From contig SBAX01000414.1 of assembly GCA_005240095.1 (NCBI GenBank), positions 1 to 44,489 on the forward strand: DNA of 44,489 nt, read 5' to 3'. This stretch comes from Phycisphaera mikurensis (lineage in GTDB: Bacteria; Planctomycetota; Phycisphaerae; UBA1845). The notes below the pieces were generated by a model. It did no database searches. It was given only the letters and a program-made list of their open reading frames with translations, and was not told where the DNA came from. Of this stretch, positions 778 through 40,798 are shown piece after piece. How positions within the stretch are numbered: the stretch's first letter is position 1; the number at the start of each line of letters is the position of its first letter. Both the position numbers and the translations under genes were made by a program.

Positions 778-813
778 CCCTTACCCCCTGCCCCTCTCCC
801 GAGGGGAGAGGGG
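778..813 (+). repeat. REP-like palindrome family B (CCCTYACCCC..CCCTCTCCC-loop-GRGAGAGGG)
   Basis: Similar copies at 14935-14969, 22998-23034 and, reversed, inside murJ at 38995-39033. Confidence 0.8.
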
Positions 814-6004: not shown

Positions 6005-6103
6005 GTGCGACCCTTTCAGGGTCGGGAGCGTTATTGAATGGGCCGTGTCCGGGGGCGGCGCTGCGCTGGCCCCCGGCTACTATCGGGCAGGCTTTCAGCC
6101 TGC
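6005..6103 (+). repeat. Composite REP-like element family C (CGACCCTTTCAGGGTCG ... CCGGGGGC..GCCCCCGGCTAC ... GCAGGCTTTCAGCCTGC)
   Basis: Three-hairpin unit, with a second copy at 14204-14295. Confidence 0.85.
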
Positions 6104-6174
6104 AGGACCTAAGGGCACCGGCTTCTCAGAGAAAAAACTGCAGTTTGAGTAATTAGCAGCGAAGGCGGAAACGG

Positions 6175-14203: not shown

Positions 14204-14295
14204 GTGCGACCCTTTCAGGTCGGGATGGCGCGCGGGAGGTCCGGGGGCGGCGCTGCGCTTGCCCCCGGCTACTTTAGCGCAGGCTTTCAGCCTGC
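14204..14295 (+). repeat. Composite REP-like element family C, copy 2
   Basis: Matches 6005-6103 in all three hairpins. Confidence 0.85.
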
Positions 14296-14355
14296 TCGTC
14301 CTCTTCATGAGCCACCTGCTTACCTAAGGAGGCAGAGGTGCTACTGACTCGCCGC

Positions 14356-14895: not shown

Positions 14896-14934
14896 GGCGC
14901 AAGCCTATGCCCAGCGCCGTCGGGGTTCAAGAAG

Positions 14935-15037
14935 CCCTCACCCCTGCCCCTCTCCCGAGGTGAGAGGGGAACGGCTCGGCGGTGGGCCTAAGGCGGATCG
15001 CCCTCCCAGTACGGCTCGGCGGGAGCCTCGCCCTCCC
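14935..15037 (+). repeat. REP cluster: family B (14935-14969) + variant A (14972-15007) + family A (15012-15037)
   Basis: Same B-then-A arrangement as 778-843. Confidence 0.85.
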
Positions 15038-16553: not shown

Positions 16554-19335
16554 ATGAAGCCGTTCAAGTTGTTTGTCGGTATTGGGGGGTGTTGCGCCCT
16601 TTGGTCGGGTGGCGCGGCCCGAGCCCTAGCGGCCGGCAACGTGGCAGGATGCACGGCGGTCGATCCGTGCGCAGCATCCGCCACACTCACCGGATCGATG
16701 GCCCTTCCCAACGACCACTTTGGACGCTCGCTGGCGATTGGTGCAGACGTGATGGTCGTAGGCACGCCCGATGCGGACTGCGCCCGAGGTTTACAGTGCG
16801 GAGAGGCATACGTTTTAACGTGGGACGGCTCAACCTGGTTTGAAGCCGCGCGGCTAACGGCGCCGTCACCACAAAATGTAGGCAAGTTTGGCTGGTCCGT
16901 CGCGGTTCACGGTGGCATCGTGGTAGTCGGCACTCCGAATGAGTTCTGTGCGTCTTCCCTTAGGACCTTGTGCGGGGCTGCCTACGTGTTCCGTCACAAC
17001 GGAGCAACCTGGGCGCAGGACGCCCAACTTCGTGCTCCCGATCAACAAACGGCAGCAAACTTCGGCTACGCCGTCGCTGCGGGGCAGGACGTGATCTTGG
17101 TCAGCGCACCGTCGCGAAGCGCCGTGTACGTATTCCGATACGATGGCGCAGCATGGACCGAGGACCAGAGGATTGACGTACCTTCAGGGCTTGTGGGTTC
17201 TGGCTTCGGCAACGCCATGGCTATCCAGTGGCGCCGCGGCGTTGATCGGTGAGCCGGGCAACAACGCAACTCACATTTATCGGGATGACGGCACCGACTG
17301 GCAACTCGAACAGTCCATTTTTCCGGACGACTTGGCGAATGCTTCCAACTTCGGGATCGCTGTGGCCATCGACGGCCCAACCGCGGTCATTGGGGCGAGC
17401 GCTCGAGATTGTGCAGCCGGGACGGATTGCGGAGTGGCATACGTGTATCGGTTCGACGGATCCCTGTGGAACGCGGAAGCCACACTGGTGGCGCCTGACG
17501 CAGCCCCCGACGATCGGTTCGGCGGGGCCGTCTCAGTACTTGGCGATCTGGCCCTGATCGGTAACAGCTGCCAGTTCAGTTGCGGCGGCAGCGGCGCATA
17601 CCTGTTCCGGCACGACTTGGGGGTCTGGGCCGTGGTCGAGAAAGTCCAAGCGGCGTCCACGGGATTCGGTTCGTCCGTGGCGGTGCGAACCGACCAGCTC
17701 CTTGTCGGCGCCTATGCGGCGGGCATTGTGTTTGTCTACTCCCTGGCGGCGACGGCTCCCGACTGCGACTGCGACAGCACGAGCAATGCTTGCGAGATAG
17801 TCCGCGAAGGTGCGCCGGACTGCAACGGCAATAGCGTGCAGGACGATTGCGACGTTGCCGACGGGACCAGTCCGGACTGTAACGCCAATGGCACTCCCGA
17901 CGAATGTGACGTCGCCCGCGAAACCAGTCCGGACTGCAACGCCAACTCTACTCCCGATGAATGCGACGTCGCCGAGGGCAGCAGCCCGGACTGTAACGCC
18001 AACTCTACTCCCGATGAATGCGACGTCGCCGACGGGACGAGCACCGACGCCAACGACAACGATGTCCCTGACGAGTGCGACACCCACACTCCGCCGTTTG
18101 TCATCGAGCATCCCGAGGATGTGACGGCATGCGGTCCTGAAACGGTGGTCTTCAAAGTCAAGGGCGGGGGGATGCAGCCGCTGTCTTACCAGTGGCGGAA
18201 GGACACCGTCGATCTTGCAGGGGAGGAGGCCGATACGTTGGCGCTCAGCGGCGTCAGCCAGGCAGACGCAGGCGACTACGATGTCGTCGTGACCAACGAT
18301 CTGGGTTCAACGATCAGCGATCCCGCGACGCTTTCGTTCGCTGTACTTGGCGATGTTGCTCCCGAACCCACCGTCGTGCCCAAGAACCGCTACCTCTCGT
18401 TCATTGCGCCGCCGACGCCTTGTCGGGCAGCGATTCGCGTGCGTCTTCTTTCGCTTCAACATCCCAATCCGCCTAACGTGGACTGCTGCCCGCCGCCGGA
18501 TTTCTCGGGCTATGAAGAGGGTCCAACCTGCACGGACCCGGCAGGCTGCGTGCGCTGGGTGGGCGAGCCTCGAAGGTACCTTGAAGTGCAGGAACTTCCG
18601 GGGTACGGCACCTTCCAGGCCGCCCGCCTGCAGTGCACGCCATACTATCGCGATTGGAGTGACGTGGGGTATTTCTCGGTAACCGGCGCGGAGATCGTGC
18701 CCAGCTCGGTGTACGAGGTTGAGATGCTGGCCGCAAGCTGCCAAGGCATTGAGGAAACCTGCGCGGAAGTGTCTGCCCCGCTGGAGATTGCAACCGCTCG
18801 ATGGGGCGACATCGCCGAGCGGCGCAATCCACCGTTCACGGGCAGTCAGCCCGATGCCATTGACATCGTCTGGTTGATCAACAAGTTCAAGGCCGCACCG
18901 GGTGCCTTGAGCAATACGGTTGTGCAACTCCGGCCGAACGTGCCGGACATCAACTCCGACCCCAACGCTCTGGACGTTGCCTCGTGCGTGGATGCCTTCA
19001 AAAGCAGGGCGTATCCGTTCAGTGGTCCGTGCCCGTGCCCCTCAGATGTGCCGTGCGAGACGACAGCGTGCGCCACCAGTGCAAGCTGCATTGGCGCATA
19101 CGGAGCGGGCGCCCTGTGTGTGCGGACCTGCGCACCCGGCAGCCCGCGGGAAGGAGAGATCTGCACGCAAAACAAACATTGCGGGGCCTGCCTCGGGGGG
19201 ACGAATGCCGGGGCCACATGCAACCCCAACTCGTGTTGGCAGGGGAATTGCTGCCCGGGCGGCGGTACGTGCGCGCCGGGGACTTGTGGGGCCCAGGGCT
19301 ACTGCCGCGACCGCTGCGGGCGGTGCGCGCCGTAA
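16554..19335 (+). pseudogene. Secreted FG-GAP propeller / DCNxN-repeat / Ig-domain surface protein, frameshifted (+1 C at ~17226; real or sequencing error)
   Basis: GAGGAG RBS, ATG 16554. Frame 1 reads to ...GFGNAMAI, then after an extra C frame 2 reads SGAAALIGEPG...; colinear with the intact paralog at 19356. Confidence 0.8.
17761..18081 (+). repeat. 57-bp (19-aa) coding tandem repeat, 6 units, DCNxNxxPDECD type
   Basis: Units start at 17761, 17818, 17875, 17932, 17989, 18046. Confidence 0.9.
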
Positions 19336-19355
19336 GGGGTAAGGAGGAAGAAGTC

Positions 19356-22091
19356 ATGCGCAAGCGACTATTCACGGGGCGGATGGTCATGATCGTGGGC
19401 TTGGTCTTGGGGATTCGCGGTGTCGCTTACGCTGAGTCTCCGGGAGGCGTAGCGGGATGCGTCGCGGTGGAGTACTGCGCGGAAACGGCGAAGCTGACCG
19501 GCTCGATGACTCTGCCCAACGACCATTTCGGGCGAAGTCTGGCTGTCCATGGCGACGTGATGCTGGTGGGAACGCCCGATGCGAACTGCAGCCAGGGCCC
19601 GCAGTGCGGAGAGGCATACTTCTTCGCCTGGGACGGCGCGGCGTGGTCTGAAACCGCGAGGTTCACCGCTCCCGCGCCGCAAAACATCGGCAAGTACGGT
19701 TGGTCCGTGGCCGTACATGGCGACCTGGCGGTGATCGGTATGCCCAATCAGCGGTGCACCTCCGTATTCTCCAACTGCGGTGGAGCGCATGTCCTTCGCT
19801 ACGACGGAGTGAGTTGGGTGCCGGAAGCGGAGCTTCGCGCTTCCGATCAGGAGCCGGGGGATGAATTCGGCTATGCGGTGGCCGCCGGGGAGGACGTGAT
19901 TCTCATCGGCGCACCGTATCAGGTGGGGGTTGCCGGGCTCGGCGCCGTTTACGTGTTTCGATACGACGGCGTCGGGTGGGTGGAAGACCAGAGGATCGAC
20001 GCGCCCGCCGGGCATGAAACCTTCCGGTTCGGCGACTCGGTGGCCTTGAGCGGCGTCGCCGCGGTGATCGGAGAATCGAACAACAAGGCCACGACCCTAG
20101 TCGCTCACGGGGCGGCCTACATCTATCGCGACGATGGGGACAACTGGCAAATCGAACAAACGCTTCTTCCGGACGACCTGTCCGATGCATCCCAATTCGG
20201 CATTGCCGTGGGCCTAGACGGCACCGCCGCGATCGTCGGAGCGAGCAGTCGGGACTGTGCCGCCGGAAGCGCCTGCGGGGCGGCATATGTGTATCGATTC
20301 GACGGTGCGCTCTGGAACGCGGAAGCCACGCTGTCGGCGCCGGATGCGGCGACCAACGACATGTTCGGGGCGGCCGTGGCTGTGCTGGGGGACCGGGCGC
20401 TGATCGGCGCCAGCGGGGATAGTTGCGGTAGTTTCGGTTGCGGCGCCGCGTACGTGTTCGGGTATGCGCTGGGCGTCTGGTCAGAAGAACAAAAGGTGCT
20501 TCCGGCCGCAAGACAGGCTTCTGCATTTTTCGGCATTTCGACGGCTCTGCGAGCGGACCAACTGGCGGTGGGCGCCACCGGCGACAACTGCGCGGCGGGC
20601 ATGCCGTGTGGCGCCGTGTTCGTGTATTCCTTCGGAGCGACCAGCGCGGACTGCGATTGCGACGGCGTGACCGATCTGTGCGAGGTGGCCGTGGAGGGCG
20701 CCGTGGACTGCAACGACAACTCGGTTCAAGACGACTGCGATGTTGCCGACGGGACCAGCCCTGATTGTAACGCGAACACCGATCCGGATGAGTGCGACGT
20801 CGCCGCAGGCGCCAGCACGGACGTCAACGGCAACGGTGTTCCCGACGAATGCGACACGACCCTGCCGCCGTTCATCATCGAGCACCCGGCCGGCGACGAG
20901 GTGTGTGAAGGAGATGATGCTACGTTCACCGTGGTAGCCGGCGGAATGCCTCCTTTCACGTACCAATGGCGGCACGACGGCATGGACCTCACCGGCGAGA
21001 CCGCGGACACGCTCGTGCTGATGAACGTTCAGGCCACAGATGGCGGTGACTACGACGTCGTCGTCAGCAACGACCTGGGATCGGTGACCAGCGACCCCGC
21101 CAGCCTTGTCGTCGCCGCAGACACAGACTTGATTCTCCAGCCCGACCCGAGCGGCATTCCTCACACCCGCTTCCTGACCTTTGTGCCGCCGCAGATTCCG
21201 TGCGCGGCGGCACTACGTGTGGTTATGGTCGATCTGCAGACGCCCAATCCTCCTAACCATGCGTGCTGTCCACCTCCCAACTTTGGTGCCTACGAAGCGG
21301 GGACCTGTGCCGCGGCAGGCGAACTGGAAGGCTGCGCGCGATGGGTGGGGCAGCCGCGCAAGTACCTCGAAGCGCAAGAGCTGCCGGGCTATGGCAACTA
21401 CTGGGCGGCGCGCTTGCAGTGTACGCCGCACTATCAGGACTGGAGGGGTGCGAATCCCCTTTCCGTCACGGGAGCGGAGATTGTGCCCAGCTCTTCCTAC
21501 ACCGTGCAGGCGGTGAGCATCCATTGTCTTGGCAACGAGGCCAATTGTGCCGAGGTTTCCACGGACCTTCCGATCTCCACGCCGCGGGCGGGTGACGTCG
21601 TCGCCTCGTTCCAGAGCCCCGAGGGGCCTCTCAACCAGCCCAACGCGATCGACATCGTGGGTGTGGTCAACAACTTCAGGAAGCTAACCGGCGCCCCCAA
21701 ACACGTCGAGGCCCAGGTTCGGCCGGACCTGCCGAACCTCAACCGTGACGTGGACGCTCTGGACATGCAGGCCGTCGTCGCCAACGTCAAACTGGGGGCG
21801 TATCCGTTCAGCGGTCCGTGTCCGTGCCCGTCGACGGTGACGTGCGGCACGGCCTGCAGCGGTAGCATGCCTTGCTTTGGCGGCAATCTGTGCATGCAGA
21901 CGTGCTCGGCCGGTCCGCGCATGGGCGAGTTCTGTACTTCGAACAGGCACTGCGGCACGTGCGTAGGCGGCTCGCGCGACGGCATCCCCTGCGACTCCAA
22001 TGCATTCTGCGGGACCGGTAGCACGTGCGCCACAGGCACTTGCGCTACTCAGGGCTACTGCCGCGACCGGTGCGGGCGCTGCACGCCGTAG
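19356..22091 (+). CDS. Secreted FG-GAP propeller / DCNxN-repeat / Ig-domain surface protein with Cys-rich C-terminus (911 aa)
   Basis: AAGGAGG RBS; signal peptide ..GVAYA-E; 7 FG-GAP-type blades; 4 DCNxN repeats; Ig I-set-like 'YQWRHDG..DGGDYDVVVSN'; ends CRDRCGRCTP. Confidence 0.9.
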   Translation: MRKRLFTGRMVMIVGLVLGIRGVAYAESPGGVAGCVAVEYCAETAKLTGSMTLPNDHFGRSLAVHGDVMLVGTPDANCSQGPQCGEAYFFAWDGAAWSETARFTAPAPQNIGKYGWSVAVHGDLAVIGMPNQRCTSVFSNCGGAHVLRYDGVSWVPEAELRASDQEPGDEFGYAVAAGEDVILIGAPYQVGVAGLGAVYVFRYDGVGWVEDQRIDAPAGHETFRFGDSVALSGVAAVIGESNNKATTLVAHGAAYIYRDDGDNWQIEQTLLPDDLSDASQFGIAVGLDGTAAIVGASSRDCAAGSACGAAYVYRFDGALWNAEATLSAPDAATNDMFGAAVAVLGDRALIGASGDSCGSFGCGAAYVFGYALGVWSEEQKVLPAARQASAFFGISTALRADQLAVGATGDNCAAGMPCGAVFVYSFGATSADCDCDGVTDLCEVAVEGAVDCNDNSVQDDCDVADGTSPDCNANTDPDECDVAAGASTDVNGNGVPDECDTTLPPFIIEHPAGDEVCEGDDATFTVVAGGMPPFTYQWRHDGMDLTGETADTLVLMNVQATDGGDYDVVVSNDLGSVTSDPASLVVAADTDLILQPDPSGIPHTRFLTFVPPQIPCAAALRVVMVDLQTPNPPNHACCPPPNFGAYEAGTCAAAGELEGCARWVGQPRKYLEAQELPGYGNYWAARLQCTPHYQDWRGANPLSVTGAEIVPSSSYTVQAVSIHCLGNEANCAEVSTDLPISTPRAGDVVASFQSPEGPLNQPNAIDIVGVVNNFRKLTGAPKHVEAQVRPDLPNLNRDVDALDMQAVVANVKLGAYPFSGPCPCPSTVTCGTACSGSMPCFGGNLCMQTCSAGPRMGEFCTSNRHCGTCVGGSRDGIPCDSNAFCGTGSTCATGTCATQGYCRDRCGRCTP
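20649..20855 (+). repeat. 57-bp coding tandem repeat, 4 units
   Basis: DCDCDGVTDLCE / DCNDNSVQDDCD / DCNANTDPDECD / DVNGNGVPDECD. Confidence 0.85.
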
Positions 22092-22184
22092 CGGGGGGCG
22101 AGCTGCCCTTCGTTTCTCGTAGACTCCTTTGACGGTAGAATAGGGCCGTTGTCGCTACTTGCCGTGGGAAAAGCGAAGCTGCCA

Positions 22185-22997: not shown

Positions 22998-23034
22998 CCC
23001 TCACCCCAACCCTCTCCCTTGGAGGGAGAGGGGG
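22998..23034 (+). repeat. REP-like family B copy
   Basis: CCCTCACCCCAACCCTCTCCCTTGGAGGGAGAGGGGG. Confidence 0.85.
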
Positions 23035-37140: not shown

Positions 37141-37144
<4 letters not shown>

Positions 37145-37935
37145 ACGATTGACTCCTCCTGGCGGGCGTACGTTTTTCGCGTGCCTCCGAAGCCGTGTCC
37201 GGAGGCGAGGGGGCCATGATACGGCCACTCGCCGGCCGTCGCTATGGTCTGACATGTTCGGACAAACAGCGGGTGGACGGGAGGTGGTATCGCGCCCGTG
37301 TCGGGAGGCCGAGGCTCCTGCCGAGCCGCGCCTCGCGGCTTCAGCTTTCCGGTTCCGGCGGGCGCCGGGCCAGGGGCGGCCTGGAACGCACGTGATGCTT
37401 GGATCTCGGGCAGCGGTACCGGCGGGGCCGGCGGATCGGGTCCGGCCTGAAGCGGCAAGTCCCACCAGGCTACGTCATGCCAGGCGCCCAGTTTGAAGCC
37501 CACGCGATGAAACACGCCGACTTTGCGGAACCCCACGCGCTCGTGGAGGCGAACGCTGGTGGGATTGGGCAGGGTGATCCCCGCCACGGCCGTGCGGTGG
37601 CCTTGCACACGCAGGCAGGCGAACAGCGATTCGTACAGCGCTCGCCCGATCCCCCGCCCGCGGGCGGTCTCGGCCACGTAGACGGAGACCTCCACCGTCC
37701 ACTGGTAGGCCGGTCGTGTTCGGAACACCCCTGCGTAGGCATATCCCAACACGTGCCCGCCGGAGTCATAGACGAGCCACGGCAGCGTCTTGAGCGTCCC
37801 CTCGATCCGCCGCCACATCTCCTCCACGGTCGGCGGCTCCAGCTCAAAGGAGGTATGCGAATGCGTCACAATTGGCGCGTAGATCGATTGTATCGCGGGA
37901 GCATCGTCGAGAGTCGCCAGGCGGATCCGGTCCAT
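37141..37935 (-). CDS. GNAT N-acetyltransferase (phosphinothricin acetyltransferase-like) with C-terminal extension
   Basis: SFELEPPT, GYAYA..R.RPAY.WTVEVSVYV..RGRGIG..LY, PNPTSVRLHERVGF..VGFKLGAWHDV; the last ~70-80 aa are non-domain sequence. Confidence 0.88.
37303..37328 (-). repeat. REP-like family A copy, inside the GNAT ORF tail
   Basis: GGGAGGCCGAGGCTCCTGCCGAGCCG; translated as ARQEPRPP. Confidence 0.85.
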
Positions 37936-37983: not shown

Positions 37984-39633
37984 CTAATTGCCCTCGGGGG
38001 TTTGGCGCAGGGCGGTGCGGAGTTCTTCGATGCCCAGGACGAAGGAGGCAAGAAGGTAGCTGCCGATTCCGGCGGCAACTAGAAAGAGCAGTCGCAGAGC
38101 TACGCCAAACGGCGCGGTCAGCCAGGCGAAGATCAGCAGCGCCGCGGTCATGGCGGCGGTAGCGAGCAGGATGCGCCAGATGCTTTGCAGCAGGCGTAGC
38201 CAGCCGACCTGCGGCATGCGGCCATGCAGCCGAGTGATGAGCCACATCACCTGCACCGTGGCACAGATGGCCGTGGCCAGGGCCAGCCCGCGCTCCTCCA
38301 TCACGAACACAAGCACCAGGTTGAGCGCCAGATCGAGACCCACCATCATGAGCGCCGCCCGCGCCGGCGTAGCGCTGTCCTGAAGCGCATAGAACGCCCG
38401 CACCACGATGTGCTGGGCAAAGTAGGCCGGAATGCCGAGGCTGTAGAAGACGAGCGTAGCGGACACACGGGCGGTGTCGGAGGCATCGAACTCCCCGCGC
38501 TGATAGAGCGTGGCCACCAGCGGCTGGGCCACGAAGATGAGTCCCACGGCCGCGGGCAGCGCAATGAAAAGAGTCATACGTATGCCGCGCTCGAAAACGC
38601 CGGCGAAGCCCCCGTGGTCGTTCTGGGCGACTTTGGTGGAGAGCTCCGGAAAAATCGCCGTGGCCAGCGAAATCCCCGCCACACCCAGCGGAAGCTGATA
38701 GAGAAACTGGGCATAGCCCAGCACCGCCGGCCCGACGCGCTCGCCGTTTTCGGTTACAAAGAGGTATGCAATGATGGTGTCCACCATCGTGTTGATCTGC
38801 ACGGCCGAGAGGCCCAAAGCCATCGGCCCCATCAGGGCGAAGACGCGGCGAAGCAGCGGATCGTTCCAGGCCATCCCCAGTTTGGGGAAGAAGCCGACAC
38901 GCTTGAGCGCCCCGGCCGTAAGTAATACCTGCAGCAGCCCAGCTACCAATACGCTCGCGCACACCAGGTTCATGAGCCACACGTCGTCACCCGCCGTTCC
39001 CCCTCCCCCCCCGGGAGAGGGTCGGGGTGAGGGCTCGGCGTGTGCCAGCGATTCCTGAGCGGCAACGGGTGCCACGGACAAGCTCTGCTTGTCCGTGCCT
39101 CTGTCCATCATCAGTGACCCGCCCAGCAGCGCCACGATCATGGCCACGTTGAGAATGGTCGGAGCTGCCGCGGGCACGGCGAAGTGCCGGCGCACGTTGA
39201 GCACGCCGCTGGCCACCGCCGCGGTGCAGATCAGGGCCATGTATGGCATGAGAAAGGCGGTCAGGCGCAGGGCATGGTCGTCATCGATCCACCGCCACAC
39301 CGCCAGCACCAGCTCGATCGCCACTACCGCCCCGGTGAGGATCAGAGCCAATAGCGACAGCAGACTGCCCACCAGCCGTCGCGACTCTTCCTCTCCGCGT
39401 GTCTGGAGGCTCTCGGTCAGGACCGGAATCATGGCCGAGGACAGCGCCCCCTCTCCGAACAGCCGTCGGGCGAGATTGGGGGCCTGGAAGGCGATGCGGA
39501 AGCCGGACAGCAGTTCGCCAGTGGCGAAGAAGTAGCTGAACATCGTCTCGCGGACCAGGCCAAGCAGGCGCGACACGAGGGTCAGTCCCCCGATGAGCCC
39601 GGCAGAAAGGATGAAACGCGTGGACGATGCCAT
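37984..39633 (-). CDS. murJ: Lipid II flippase MurJ (MviN)
   Basis: TLVSRLLGLVRE, PNLARRLFGEGALSSAMIPV, YQLPLGVAG, LYQRGEF, RAFYALQD; carries an unusual hydrophilic insertion. Confidence 0.95.
   Translation of the reverse strand: MASSTRFILSAGLIGGLTLVSRLLGLVRETMFSYFFATGELLSGFRIAFQAPNLARRLFGEGALSSAMIPVLTESLQTRGEEESRRLVGSLLSLLALILTGAVVAIELVLAVWRWIDDDHALRLTAFLMPYMALICTAAVASGVLNVRRHFAVPAAAPTILNVAMIVALLGGSLMMDRGTDKQSLSVAPVAAQESLAHAEPSPRPSPGGGGGTAGDDVWLMNLVCASVLVAGLLQVLLTAGALKRVGFFPKLGMAWNDPLLRRVFALMGPMALGLSAVQINTMVDTIIAYLFVTENGERVGPAVLGYAQFLYQLPLGVAGISLATAIFPELSTKVAQNDHGGFAGVFERGIRMTLFIALPAAVGLIFVAQPLVATLYQRGEFDASDTARVSATLVFYSLGIPAYFAQHIVVRAFYALQDSATPARAALMMVGLDLALNLVLVFVMEERGLALATAICATVQVMWLITRLHGRMPQVGWLRLLQSIWRILLATAAMTAALLIFAWLTAPFGVALRLLFLVAAGIGSYLLASFVLGIEELRTALRQTPEGN
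38995..39033 (-). repeat. REP-like family B copy in-frame inside murJ
   Basis: Minus strand CCCTCACCCCGACCCTCTCCCGGGGGGGGAGGGGGAACG, encoding PSPRPSPGGGGGT. Confidence 0.8.
39068..39097 (+). repeat. Perfect 11-bp palindrome (REP-like) in-frame inside murJ
   Basis: GGTGC-CACGGACAAGC-TCT-GCTTGTCCGTG; encodes TDKQSLSVA on the minus strand. Confidence 0.7.
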
Positions 39634-39868
39634 GTCCGGATATGATCGGCTTGCGGCGGCGTCGGGGAATCGGGATTCAGCCGCCTCGTTGGAACAGGGT
39701 CGGGTCACGGGCCGAGCGAGCCACCCCTGCCGCACGGAATCCCGTTGACAAAAGCGGCGGATCGCTTACCTATCGCGGTGGGCGGGGGTATATTGCCGCC
39801 CGCAGCCCCGAAGGTCCATGGCGGACAGCCGATGGCCGGCTGCGGTTTGACCGATTGGAGATGATCTC

Positions 39869-40204
39869 ATGGCGCACATCGTCGCCGAGCCGTGCATCAA
39901 ATGTAAGTACACCGATTGCGTGGCGGTCTGCCCGGTGGACTGTTTTCACGAGGGCGTGAACTTCCTGGCCATCGACCCGGACGTGTGCATCGACTGCGGC
40001 CTGTGCCCGCCGGAGTGCCCCACCACGGCGATCTTTGCGGAGGAGGACCTCCCCGAGAAGTGGAAGAACTTCATCGAGATCAACAAGAAATACGGGGCCG
40101 TCTGGCCGGTCATCGACGCCCAGAAGGAGCCGCTCCCCGGCGCCGACGAGATGGCCAAGGTCGAATCCAAGCTCGACCAGCTCGACCCCAACCCGGGACC
40201 GTAG
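39869..40204 (+). CDS. fdxA: 7Fe ferredoxin (FdxA type)
   Basis: [40 protein letters not shown]; GGAG RBS. Confidence 0.95.
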
Positions 40205-40206
40205 CT

Positions 40207-40232
40207 GGGAGGGCGAGGCTCCTGCCGAGCCG
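40207..40232 (-). repeat. REP-like family A copy
   Basis: GGGAGGGCGAGGCTCCTGCCGAGCCG, starting 2 nt after the ferredoxin stop. Confidence 0.9.
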
Positions 40233-40270
40233 GCGGAGGGCGAACCCTAACCGCATCACCCAGCCCGCGG

Positions 40271-40798
40271 TTACGTTTCCCCGCTTCCCGATTTCCTCGA
40301 AACCCTCCGCCCCACCACATTGTGCCCGCACTCGGGACATGGGCCGCCGGGGCTGCCCCCCAGGTCGTAGGCACAGAACTCGCACAATCCCAGGCGCCTT
40401 CGGCGGCGACGACGCAGCAGCGGAACGAGACACAAGAGTCCGGAGCTGACGCCGAATACCAGCAGCGGGAATCCGAGGTGCAGGTAGAGCGATGAGAACC
40501 CTCGACCGGAGAAGGTCTGCGGCAGGAACTTACCCGGCGGCAGGCGCTCTGCCGAGCCTTCGCGGGCCCGTCGGCAATAGGGCCAGTTGAACCTGGAAAA
40601 GTTCTCCGGAAAGTACTGCAGCAGCGTGCGCCCGTCCGGATGGACGACGATGTTGACCAGCCACGAGGAGCCGTATGGGAAGCCGCAGGTGTAGGACCCG
40701 CTGCCGCCTCGAAACAGGGCGATGACGAGCGCGATCAACCACAGCAAAACCGTGATTGCCAGCCCGCTATACGACAGCCAGGTTGCAAGCGAACGCAT
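40271..40798 (-). CDS. Two-TM membrane protein with C-terminal zinc ribbon
   Basis: TM helices at both ends, then RRRRRRRLGLCEFCAYDLGGSPGGPCPECG. Confidence 0.75.
   Translation of the reverse strand: MRSLATWLSYSGLAITVLLWLIALVIALFRGGSGSYTCGFPYGSSWLVNIVVHPDGRTLLQYFPENFSRFNWPYCRRAREGSAERLPPGKFLPQTFSGRGFSSLYLHLGFPLLVFGVSSGLLCLVPLLRRRRRRRLGLCEFCAYDLGGSPGGPCPECGHNVVGRRVSRKSGSGET

What the first reader, a model, noticed from the sequence alone, without database searches (positions are those of the whole stretch)
38990..39105. Two different palindromic repeats inserted in-frame in murJ, creating a new protein loop
Seen: between two TM segments MurJ carries DRGTDKQSLSVAPVAAQESLAHAEPSPRPSPGGGGGTAG. 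PSPRPSPGGGGGT is encoded by a family B repeat also found intergenically at 778, 14935 and 22998, even retaining the GGAACG flank seen at 14968. TDKQSLSVA is encoded by a perfect 11-bp hairpin. Established: Rickettsia palindromic elements insert in-frame into genes. Inference: the same repeat-to-protein process operates here in a normally essential gene, with two families targeting one permissive loop.
Basis: partly seen in the sequence, partly recalled or inferred. Interest (0 to 1): 0.75.

Follow-up and report, generated by a model that had tools for sequence, protein, structure and literature searches.

The report
Repeat hairpins translated inside murJ
The cell-wall flippase gene murJ of this groundwater planctomycete carries a 114-base in-frame insertion made of two small hairpin repeats that are scattered all over its genome, adding a floppy 38-residue outer loop; this is a clear but already known kind of event.

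Summary
murJ (window 37984-39633, minus strand) holds a 114-nt in-frame insert (38992-39105). It consists of a family A hairpin repeat, a unique 30-nt spacer and a family B repeat.

- **Copy numbers:** the 4.67-Mb assembly has 51 A copies and 211 B copies, against 0 and 3 in reversed-genome controls.
- **Lineage-specific:** all 29 aligned relatives and 118 of the 120 best database homologues (the other two: this protein itself and P0023) have a 5-6-residue link here.
- **Structure:** AlphaFold places the insert as a low-confidence loop between TM5 and TM6, on the periplasmic side.
- **Genome-wide:** 24 repeat copies lie in frame in 20 ORFs. For 14 copies in 12 genes, Pfam matches span or flank the copy. 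The ValRS and TauE inserts are absent from four same-genus genomes.
- **One point modified:** A lies upstream of B in the same orientation in all 11 A-B neighbour pairs, and 8 of 20 decorated ORFs hold adjacent modules. A linked arrival is therefore likelier than two chance hits.

No cognate transposase and no target duplication were found.

This works like Rickettsia palindromic elements and the intragenic REPs of Di Nocera et al. 2013. This scan has also reported the same kind in many other genomes. It is a new member of a known kind, of moderate interest.

The parts
37984..39633 (-). murJ (lipid II flippase) coding sequence, 549 aa from ATG 39633; the open frame continues upstream to a GTG at 39735
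   Evidence: The ORF is. Pfam MurJ scores 298 bits. The database form is 549 aa. The AF2 model has pLDDT 90.7 and matches solved MurJ structures at TM 0.8-0.88.
38992..39105 (-). Lineage-specific in-frame insert of 114 nt, residues 177-214 of the 549-aa protein (DRGT...GGGTA)
   Evidence: The insert is absent from 29 of 29 aligned relatives and from 118 of 120 database homologues. pLDDT is below 50 at residues 182-201 and 207-211, between helices 152-180 and 214-245.
39067..39097 (-). Family A element: an 11-bp perfect hairpin (arms 39087-39097 and 39073-39083, loop AGA) plus the 3' tag GCACCC; encodes (G)TDKQSLSVAP
   Evidence: It differs from the family consensus at one position. There are 51 genomic copies against 0 in the control.
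39037..39066 (-). Unique 30-nt spacer encoding VAAQESLAHA, of unknown origin
   Evidence: Apart from itself, the best match in the assembly is 14 nt at E = 0.38. Repeat coverage over it is low.
38993..39035 (-). Family B element (subfamily with the GGGGGAAC(G) 3' extension); its second hairpin arm is degraded (GGGGAGGGGG instead of GGGAGAGGGG); encodes EPSPRPSPGGGGGT
   Evidence: See (I1, I2, I18, I25) and the listing. The pattern hit is at 39000-39033. There are 211 genomic copies against 3 in the control.
778..813 (+). Intergenic family B copy, followed directly by a family C copy at 817-843
   Evidence: D8, D13; gene map.
14934..14969 (+). Intergenic family B copy with the GGAACGGC flank; a family C copy lies at 15011-15037
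   Evidence: D8, I1, D13; gene map.
22998..23033 (+). Intergenic family B copy of the second subfamily (ACCCTCACCCCAACCCTCTCCCTnnnAGGGAGAGGG)
   Evidence: D8, I2; gene map.

Best explanation
murJ of this Phycisphaerae-type genome, assembled from a groundwater metagenome, has taken up small REP-like dispersed hairpin repeats in frame. The inserted DNA is a family A hairpin, a unique 30-nt spacer and a family B element.

**What the insert does to the protein.** The 114-nt insert has no stop codon and keeps the reading frame. It replaces a 5-6-residue periplasmic link between TM5 and TM6 with a 44-residue loop rich in Gly, Ala, Ser and Pro, probably disordered. The 14-helix flippase fold is otherwise intact.

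**Why it persists (inferred).** It survives because this peripheral loop tolerates extra length, not because the loop has a function. It is one survivor among at least a dozen such decorations in this genome. Most copies that land inside genes are presumably removed by selection.

**How the two elements arrived (inferred).** They most likely arrived in a linked way. Either they came as one composite piece, or the second element inserted next to the first. This would follow the same rule that builds the ordered A-B-C arrays between genes.

The enzyme that moves these repeats is not identified.
For: **Shown**
- The insert and its two repeats are in the sequence.
- Copy numbers are far above controls: A 51 vs 0, B 211 vs 3, C 195 vs 0.
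- 29 of 29 aligned relatives lack the insert. In all 39 relatives with a match, the match to MurJ comes in separate pieces on either side of query residues about 205-250, which no piece covers.
- 118 of 120 database homologues have a 9-11-residue segment where this protein has 47.
- The protein's database cluster is a singleton, and the next best hit is 72% identical.
- AF2 gives pLDDT 90.7 and pTM 0.89. The insert lies between helices 152-180 and 214-245 at pLDDT below 50. The fold matches solved MurJ at TM 0.80-0.88.
- Solved MurJ sequences align in two blocks, leaving query residues 205-261 opposite chain residues 177-192.
- The process is genome-wide. In-frame copies with coding flanks are A 3/47, B 18/194 and C 3/173, against 49% of 4843 random positions.
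- Pfam matches span or flank 14 copies in 12 genes: MurJ, ValRS, TauE, AsnB, a MacB-type permease, NeuB, NTP_transf_3, a GT4 glycosyltransferase, DUF1702, Metallophos, GATase_5 and UvrD.
- The ValRS and TauE inserts are absent from four same-genus genomes.
- For linkage: B lies downstream of A in the same orientation in 11 of 11 A-B neighbour pairs, murJ included. Eight of 20 decorated ORFs hold two or more adjacent modules.
- For recency of A: its copy is one mismatch from consensus. Family A has 0-1 hits in four same-genus genomes, against 75 strand hits in this genome.
- Independent contigs support both junctions.

**From established knowledge**
- The periplasmic assignment follows from counting helices from a cytoplasmic N-terminus. 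That MurJ topology is recalled, not computed here.
Against: - No target-site duplication is evident at the junctions.
- None of the four Y1 (IS200/RAYT-type) transposase genes is flanked by A, B or C. Their own flanking palindromes are low-copy. The mobilisation step is therefore unproven.
- The 30-nt spacer has no source elsewhere in the 89.6%-complete assembly, so a composite donor locus is not shown.
- The insert is seen in one metagenome-assembled genome only. The join across hairpin A in the independent contigs rests on a 27-nt overlap inside a repeat.
- Nothing here shows that the protein is made or active with the loop.
- A second MurJ cannot be excluded in an incomplete genome. Only one strong PF03023 match was found, plus a 29-bit one.
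Confidence: 0.85

Rival explanations
1. There were two unrelated insertion events. Families A and B each hit the TM5-TM6 loop independently, and both survived because it is one of the few permissive places in MurJ.
For: - The two elements belong to different families with different phylogenetic spread. A has 0-1 hits in same-genus genomes, while B is present in all four.
- The B copy is more degraded than the A copy, which fits different ages.
- A relative's MurJ (P0023) has a different 21-residue insert at the same place. It lies outside the clade of this MurJ plus two insert-free proteins (100/96 support). The loop was therefore probably hit more than once.
Against: - The order and orientation equal those of all 10 other A-B neighbour pairs in the genome.
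- Adjacent modules occur in 8 of 20 decorated ORFs. That is far too often for independent random hits on a genome that is 84% coding.
- The 30-nt spacer cannot come from the ancestral 5-6-residue loop.
Confidence: 0.2
2. It is an assembly artefact. The metagenome assembler joined murJ halves through repeat copies that belong elsewhere.
For: - The genome is a fragmented assembly of 488 contigs.
- The independent Logan contigs break inside hairpin A, and many other contigs pile up on both repeats.
Against: - One Logan contig runs without a difference from murJ 3' sequence through B and the spacer into A (38600-39095).
- Another runs from A into murJ 5' sequence (39069-39500). Both are at about 15x, and no insert-free joint was found.
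- The result is exactly in frame, without a stop, between the two halves of one gene.
Confidence: 0.04
3. The loop is functional rather than merely tolerated. For example, it could be a periplasmic contact surface, or the mRNA hairpin could act as a regulatory element, retained by positive selection.
For: - The A hairpin is perfect, and the 126-nt region folds far better than shuffles (-67.3 kcal/mol, z = -3.96).
- The same loop carries a different insert in another lineage.
Against: - The stability is simply what the repeat families carry everywhere.
- The peptide is low-complexity and modelled as disordered.
- Similar peptides decorate unrelated enzymes in several reading frames and both orientations.
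- The insert is confined to one genome among all those compared.
Confidence: 0.07
4. The long loop is ancestral and was lost in the relatives.
For: None beyond the logical possibility.
Against: - The short form is found in 29 of 29 relatives across genus, family and order and in 118 of 120 homologues.
- The loop DNA consists of near-consensus copies of dispersed repeats.
- The nearest proteins in the tree (P0002, P0003) are insert-free.
Confidence: 0.01

Closest known systems
Rickettsia palindromic elements (RPEs; Ogata et al. 2000 and later work, recalled; summarised in PMC10969869 and PMC3733652, passages read)
   Same: Both are dispersed palindromic repeats of several families. Both sit in frame inside many unrelated housekeeping genes, are read through as extra peptide segments, and leave the host fold compatible with function.
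   Different: - The elements here are 31-45 nt, against about 100-150 bp for the classical RPE-1 type.
- The host is a free-living-type groundwater planctomycete of about 4.7 Mb and 64% GC, not a reduced intracellular alphaproteobacterium.
- No sequence relationship to RPEs was tested.
- Intragenic copies are a minority here (2-9% by the strict test). [quoted passage not shown]
Intragenic REPs of the GTAG- and CGTC-tagged superfamilies (Di Nocera, De Gregorio and Rocco 2013, PMC3733652; passages and a supplement term search read)
   Same: - Both are 20-40-nt GC-rich hairpins with a short conserved tag at one end.
- Both are mostly intergenic, with a minority inside genes as singles, dimers or groups encoding about 7-80 residues. 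The paper notes tRNA synthetase and repair genes, and ValRS and UvrD are hit here.
- Both occur in PVC bacteria (Opitutus terrae in the paper).
   Different: - Family A carries neither GTAG nor CGTC. Its conserved end is GTG(G/C)CACCC, 3' of the stem.
- Families B and C have other architectures.
- None of the three flanks a Y1/RAYT gene in this assembly.
- No MurJ/MviN entry appears in the paper's intragenic-REP table (term search).
REPIN-RAYT systems and BIMEs (Bertels and Rainey 2011, PMC3116915: title and abstract seen in search listing; BIMEs recalled)
   Same: - Both are high-copy hairpin repeats clustered in mosaics between genes.
- Families B and C often occur as head-to-head doublets, 13 and 27 pairs.
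- The genome holds Y1 transposase genes flanked by their own palindromes.
   Different: - The murJ insert is not an inverted doublet.
- A copies are never in inverted pairs within 120 nt.
- The arrays here are directional, A then B then C on one strand.
- No single-copy RAYT flanked by A, B or C was found.
Enterobacterial small mobile repeats found intragenically (Delihas 2007, PMC2759123; 2011, PMC3184786; titles and abstracts seen in search listing only)
   Same: The idea is the same: small intergenic repeats can lie inside genes and give rise to new peptide segments.
   Different: Those are 100-170-bp MITE-like units with terminal inverted repeats, in other bacteria; not compared in detail here.

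Membership tests
MurJ / MOP-superfamily lipid II flippase (host gene) | Sequence match to the MurJ family model over its whole length | tested here: met
   PF03023 scores 298 bits and E = 1e-88, covering profile positions 2-443 of 451. Solved MurJ sequences match at E = 4e-60.
MurJ / MOP-superfamily lipid II flippase (host gene) | The 14-helix MurJ fold | tested here: met
   The AF2 model has pLDDT 90.7. Foldseek's best hits are solved MurJ structures (7wax, 7waw, 6nc6), with TM-scores of 0.80, 0.79 and 0.75 against the query and 0.86-0.88 against the target.
MurJ / MOP-superfamily lipid II flippase (host gene) | Lipid II flipping activity and essentiality | not testable with these tools
   There is only one strong PF03023 match in the 89.6%-complete genome. 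Activity is inferred.
Rickettsia palindromic elements (RPE) | A dispersed, multi-copy repeat with palindromic potential | tested here: met
   A has 51, B 211 and C 195 copies, against 0, 3 and 0 in controls. A has a perfect 11-bp stem.
Rickettsia palindromic elements (RPE) | Copies inserted in frame in otherwise intact genes that relatives have without the insert | tested here: met
   Shown for murJ, ValRS and TauE. Pfam matches span or flank the copy in 12 genes.
Rickettsia palindromic elements (RPE) | Sequence homology to the RPE-1 to RPE-10 families, or occurrence in Rickettsia | not tested
   No RPE sequence was available from a tool. Element sizes (31-45 nt) differ from the roughly 150 bp quoted in PMC10969869. 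This is filed as 'works like', not as a member.
GTAG/CGTC-tagged REP superfamilies | A GTAG or CGTC tetranucleotide at one end of the palindrome | tested here: not met
   The aligned copies of A begin (G)CACGG and end GTG(G/C)CACCC, and B begins (G/A)CCCTCACCCC. GTAG-tagged palindromes do exist in this genome, but they are other, low-copy families next to Y1 genes.
REP/REPIN-RAYT system | A cognate Y1 (RAYT) transposase gene flanked by copies of the same repeat | tested here: not met
   There are four PF01797 matches, three above the cut-off. No A, B or C copy lies within 1.5 kb of them, except one B copy about 300 nt from the C453 gene. Their flanks are different palindromes. The genome is incomplete, so absence is not proven.
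REP/REPIN-RAYT system | The mobile unit is an inverted doublet (REPIN) | tested here: not met
   The murJ insert is A plus B in direct orientation. A has no inverted neighbour within 120 nt, while B and C do form 13 and 27 head-to-head pairs elsewhere.
MITE | Terminal inverted repeats plus a target-site duplication | tested here: inconclusive
   No convincing duplication is seen at the murJ or ValRS junctions. The junctions can only be placed to within a few bases, because the nearest relatives are about 70% identical.

The most novel reading that the evidence does not exclude
The three repeat families may be modules of an unrecognised mobile system that has no RAYT.

- It builds directional A-B-C arrays.
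- It inserts next to, or together with, its own kind.
- It returns to the same sites in proteins. The MurJ TM5-TM6 link carries an A-type hairpin in this genome. By its peptide (GTAHRAVAH...), it carries an A-like hairpin with the same GCAC tag, read in the same frame, in a non-sister lineage (P0023).

That would point to insertion guided by a DNA feature, rather than random insertion followed by selection.
Probability: 0.15. Interest if true: 0.6.

Novelty: new member of a known kind. Interest (0 to 1): 0.35.

Why it matters
- **Breadth of the process.** Turning repeats into protein loops was first made famous in Rickettsia. Here it operates with several repeat families at once in a free-living-type planctomycete, and it reaches central genes such as murJ and valS.
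- **Annotation.** Short Pro/Gly-rich segments in such proteins, and many small 'hypothetical' ORFs, are repeat DNA.
- **MurJ biology.** The periplasmic TM5-TM6 link accepts 20-40 extra residues in nature. It is therefore a candidate permissive site for tags.
- **Limits.** None of this changes current understanding of the phenomenon.

Tried and rejected
- **Donor for the spacer.** A sensitive BLAST of the 30-nt spacer against the assembly gave nothing beyond chance, best 14 nt at E = 0.38.
- **Target-site duplication.** Codon-level comparison with same-genus genes showed none at murJ or ValRS.
- **Cognate transposase.** The Y1 genes carry other flanking palindromes.
- **Orientation relative to flanking genes.** No bias was found, so the array order is not explained by transcription direction.
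- **DNA of the P0023 insert.** The one metagenome scan returned 80 relatives, at most 71% identical, but not that contig. All 12 of the 14 closest loci (L056-L069) whose loop could be read have the short loop. A first regular expression found nothing because it was wrong.
- **Rfam.** No family matches the insert. The only hit in 38000-40500 is a sub-threshold ALIL match elsewhere.
- **Expression.** No RNA holder is listed among the public runs, so nothing can be said about expression.
- **Hairpin-plus-tag scan.** The control was high (221 vs 124 hits). Only the recurrent stem families are usable, not the total.
- **Literature.** One search was too broad to be useful. Searches for MurJ with 'repetitive extragenic palindromic' gave 0 papers, and Phycisphaerae with palindromic repeats gave nothing relevant.
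- **Earlier findings.** The sequence look-up gave nothing.
Full report
**1. The observation**

The minus-strand ORF 37984..39735 encodes a MurJ lipid II flippase (Pfam PF03023, 298 bits). The form held in the large protein database starts at ATG 39633 and has 549 residues.

Between two hydrophobic segments it reads GGSLMM-DRGTDKQSLSVAPVAAQESLAHAEPSPRPSPGGGGGTA-GDDVWLMN. The extra segment is residues 177-214, window 38992-39105.

- **Family A.** GTDKQSLSVAP is encoded by CACGGACAAGC-AGA-GCTTGTCCGTG plus GCACCC, a perfect 11-bp stem with a 3-nt loop.
- **Family B.** EPSPRPSPGGGGGT is encoded by a copy of the repeat also present at 778, 14934 and 22998. By a crude gene map, those three copies lie between genes.

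**2. The repeats are real families**

The window lies in a 4.67-Mb, 488-contig, 63.6% GC assembly that is 89.6% complete.

A BLAST of the murJ region against the genome shows two sharp coverage peaks, exactly on the two elements. The 30 nt between them and the murJ flanks show almost nothing.

| Family | Consensus | Copies | Reversed-genome control |
|---|---|---|---|
| A | (G)CACGGACAAGCnGAGCTTGTCCGTG(G/C)CACCC | 51 de-duplicated, at up to 6 mismatches | 0 |
| B | (G/A)CCCTCACCCC-n-CCCTCTCCC-loop-GGGAGAGGGG, two subfamilies | 211 | 3 |
| C | CGGCTCGGCGGGAGCCTCGCCCTCCC | 195 | 0 |

- One B subfamily ends in GGGGGAAC(G).
- Family C is also in the window and often directly follows B.
- The murJ A copy differs from consensus at one position.
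- The murJ B copy belongs to the GGAAC subfamily, but its second stem arm is degraded.
- No Rfam family matches the insert.

**3. The insert is lineage-specific**

The protein was searched in 40 related genomes. Every one of the 39 with a match showed it in separate pieces on either side of query residues about 205-250, which none of the pieces covers.

I aligned 29 of those 39 relatives: 4 of the same genus, 20 of the same family and 5 of the same order. All 29 have 5-6 residues (8 in L029) where this protein has 44.

Among the 120 best hits in the 5.8-billion-protein collection, the segment between two fixed anchors has these lengths:

| Segment length (residues) | Proteins |
|---|---|
| 9-11 | 118 |
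| 47 | 1 (this protein only) |
| 31 | 1 (P0023) |

The protein's own cluster is a singleton, and the next best hit is 72% identical.

Against same-genus genes, the net gain is 38 codons. No target duplication is evident.

**4. Not an assembly artefact, as far as contigs can tell**

Logan contigs of two runs of one sample, probably the source, cover 38600-39095 and 39069-39500 without a single difference, at about 15x.

- The first contig joins murJ 3' sequence to B, the spacer and most of A.
- The second joins A to murJ 5' sequence.
- They break inside hairpin A, as expected for a repeat longer than the assembler's word.
- No insert-free joint was reported.
- The residual doubt is the 27-nt overlap inside A.

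**5. Where the insert sits in the protein**

AlphaFold2, run with the 29-row alignment, gives pLDDT 90.7 and pTM 0.89.

- The insert lies between helices 152-180 and 214-245.
- pLDDT is below 50 at residues 182-201 and 207-211.
- The model matches solved MurJ structures at TM 0.80-0.88.
- Solved MurJ sequences align in two blocks, leaving query residues 205-261 opposite chain residues 177-192.
- Counting helices from a cytoplasmic N-terminus (MurJ topology recalled), this is the periplasmic TM5-TM6 link of the N-lobe.
- The 38 residues are 58% Gly, Ala, Ser and Pro.

**6. The same thing happens across the genome**

I trained a codon-usage log-odds model on 852 long ORFs. It separates the murJ frame from the other five frames.

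I then asked, for each repeat copy, two things: whether one frame stays open through it, and whether that frame is the best-scoring coding frame on both 180-nt flanks.

| Set | Copies that pass | Share |
|---|---|---|
| Family A | 3 of 47 | 6% |
| Family B | 18 of 194 | 9% |
| Family C | 3 of 173 | 2% |
| Random positions | 2374 of 4843 | 49% |

Copies within 180 nt of a contig end were left out (4, 17 and 22 copies). The repeats are therefore strongly depleted inside genes, but not absent from them.

The 24 copies lie in 20 ORFs.

- **Pfam support.** Matches span or flank 14 copies in 12 genes:
  - MurJ
  - valyl-tRNA synthetase (anticodon-binding domain)
  - TauE
  - asparagine synthase
  - a MacB-type permease
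  - NeuB
  - an NTP_transf_3 enzyme
  - a GT4 glycosyltransferase (between its two domains)
  - DUF1702
  - a metallophosphoesterase
  - a GATase_5 enzyme
  - a UvrD-type helicase
- **NeuB and GATase_5.** For these two, this rests on the best-stretch coordinates plus inference about the second stretch.
- **The other 10 copies.** They lie outside matched stretches, or in ORFs without a Pfam match, and remain unconfirmed.
- **Relatives.** Four same-genus genomes lack the ValRS insert (19 alignment columns) and most of the TauE insert.
- **Frames and orientation.**
  - All three forward frames of B are used.
  - Three reverse-strand readings are seen.
  - By my own reading of the consensus, one reverse frame would carry TGA.
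  - Both orientations occur.
  - This pattern is what random insertion filtered by selection would give.

**7. One event or two?**

Within 120 nt, B lies downstream of A in the same orientation in 11 of 11 A-B neighbour pairs. These are murJ plus 10 others, involving 8 distinct B copies. The spacers are 7-120 nt long and unrelated in sequence.

- C follows B in the same orientation 20 times and precedes it 5 times.
- B and C also form 13 and 27 head-to-head pairs.
- Orientation is not tied to the direction of flanking genes.
- Eight of the 20 decorated ORFs carry two or more repeat modules side by side.

Independent random hits cannot produce that. Either composite pieces are inserted, or new copies insert beside old ones.

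For murJ, I therefore prefer a linked arrival. However, the spacer has no donor in the assembly. In addition, A and B differ in decay and in phylogenetic spread, so two steps remain possible.

**8. Spread of the families**

| Search | Family A | Family B |
|---|---|---|
| This genome | 75 strand hits (hairpin at up to 2 mismatches) | 73 exact-pattern hits |
| Four same-genus genomes | 0-1 each | 10-31 each |
| Other relatives | 84 strand hits in one genome of another genus in the family, including a subfamily with compensatory stem changes; 13 in a second; 1 in a third; none in the remaining 33 | 95, 58, 5 and 1 hits in four other genomes; none in the remaining 32 |

- **Family A in the species-level genome collection.**
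  - The exact 31-mer gives 20 stretches.
  - Thirteen are in one Phycisphaerales assembly.
  - Four more are in three Phycisphaerae or Planctomycetales assemblies.
  - The remaining three are single copies, in two assemblies labelled Deltaproteobacteria and in a Candidatus Brocadia assembly.
- **Viral contigs.** A fixed-spacing B pattern occurs in 22 stretches on 18 IMG/VR contigs; A occurs in none.
- **Reading.** The patchiness fits lineage-specific bursts. The A burst, and hence the A copy in murJ, probably post-dates the split from the sampled congeners.

**9. How the repeats move is unknown**

The genome has four matches to the Y1 transposase family, three of them above the cut-off. Each is flanked by its own inverted palindromes, and two of those carry GTAG tags. 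These are low-copy families and are not A, B or C.

Family A belongs to a looser group of hairpins that share the stem foot CAC(G/T)G...C(A/C)GTG and the 3' tag (G/C)CAC(A/C)C. The recurrent stems are CACGGACA (35 copies) and CACTGCTC (11 copies), plus several with 2-3 copies. The scan's overall control was high, so only these families count.

**10. A second hit on the same loop**

P0023 is 69% identical and comes from a 1659-nt metagenome contig. It reads GGAIV-CNRSGTAHRAVAHGTGETAVAHTC-DDATLMDW.

- **Same place.** Its insert lies just before the conserved DDxxLM, as in this protein.
- **Likely hairpin origin.** The peptide TAHRAVAH matches the translation of hairpins of the CCACTGCTCACAGAGCAGTGGCACAC type in this genome.
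- **Not sister lineages.**
  - In a tree built with both inserts removed, this MurJ groups with the insert-free P0002 and P0003 (support 100/96).
  - P0023 lies outside that group.
  - Two gains are more parsimonious than one gain with several exact losses.
- **Limit.** The DNA of P0023 could not be obtained, so this rests on the protein alone.

**11. Comparison with what is known**

In-frame palindromic repeats are the hallmark of Rickettsia RPEs (PMC10969869, passages).

Di Nocera et al. 2013 (PMC3733652, passages) showed GTAG- and CGTC-tagged REPs inside genes of several species, including the PVC bacterium Opitutus terrae. These occur as singles, dimers or groups encoding up to 43-82 residues, and they include tRNA synthetase and repair genes.

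A term search of that paper's supplementary tables found no MurJ or MviN entry. Full-text searches found no paper linking MurJ with REPs, and none on such repeats in Phycisphaerae.

This scan has itself reported the same kind of insertion many times in other genomes.

The present case works like these systems. It fails the tested membership features of the GTAG/CGTC REPs (no such tag) and of REP-RAYT systems (no cognate flanked transposase found). It was not compared in sequence with RPEs.

**12. Verdict**

The event is an ordinary, though well-documented, example of a known process in a new host group and a new host gene.

Open points:
- whether the two elements arrived in one event or two;
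- the mobilising enzyme;
- whether the recurrence at the MurJ TM5-TM6 link reflects tolerance or targeting.

Noticed in passing
window 37141-37935 (minus); family C copy at 37303-37328: The acetyltransferase-like ORF runs on through a family C repeat (AARQEPRPP) into a further stretch of about 50 low-complexity residues before its stop. The repeat may have extended or replaced the C-terminus of this protein.
   Followed up: no
protein P0023, no DNA held: A MurJ that is 69% identical carries a different 21-residue insert (CNRSGTAHRAVAHGTGETAVAHTC) at the same TM5-TM6 position. Its peptide matches the translation of A-like hairpins (CCACTGCTCACAGAGCAGTGGCACAC) found in this genome at C437, C54 and C327.
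   Followed up: partly
G005 (another genus of the same family), many contigs: Family A is as abundant there as in this genome. It includes a subfamily with a compensatory stem change (CACTGACAAGC...GCTTGTCAGTG). Two copies lie within about 2 kb of that genome's murJ, outside the gene.
   Followed up: no
G000 contigs C263:3921-4265, C174:17707-18051, C488:2026-2385 (loci L052, L053, L055): Y1 (IS200/RAYT-type) transposase genes are each bracketed by their own inverted palindromes, and two of those carry GTAG tags. This is a REPtron-like layout, but the families are low-copy (3, about 13 and 2 loci).
   Followed up: partly
window 6047-6110 and 14239-14302: Another 64-nt dispersed repeat (89% identical between the two copies) contains the stem CCGGGGGC...GCCCCCGG. 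It is a fourth repeat family in this window.
   Followed up: no
window 16640-19339 and 19448-22095: Two adjacent large genes are tandem paralogues, 64-76% identical over several long blocks. They include an internal 57-nt periodic repeat at 17728-18081.
   Followed up: no
loci L164, L165, L167: Single exact copies of the 31-nt family A element occur in assemblies labelled Deltaproteobacteria (two) and Candidatus Brocadia. This could reflect transfer, or contigs assigned to the wrong bin.
   Followed up: no
G000 C340:6329-8557 (locus L044): One open frame joins a truncated cytidylyltransferase match (residues 8-87) to a NeuB match, through stretches made almost wholly of repeat modules. It holds at least six modules, three of them family B. 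This may be two genes fused, or bridged by repeat DNA.
   Followed up: no
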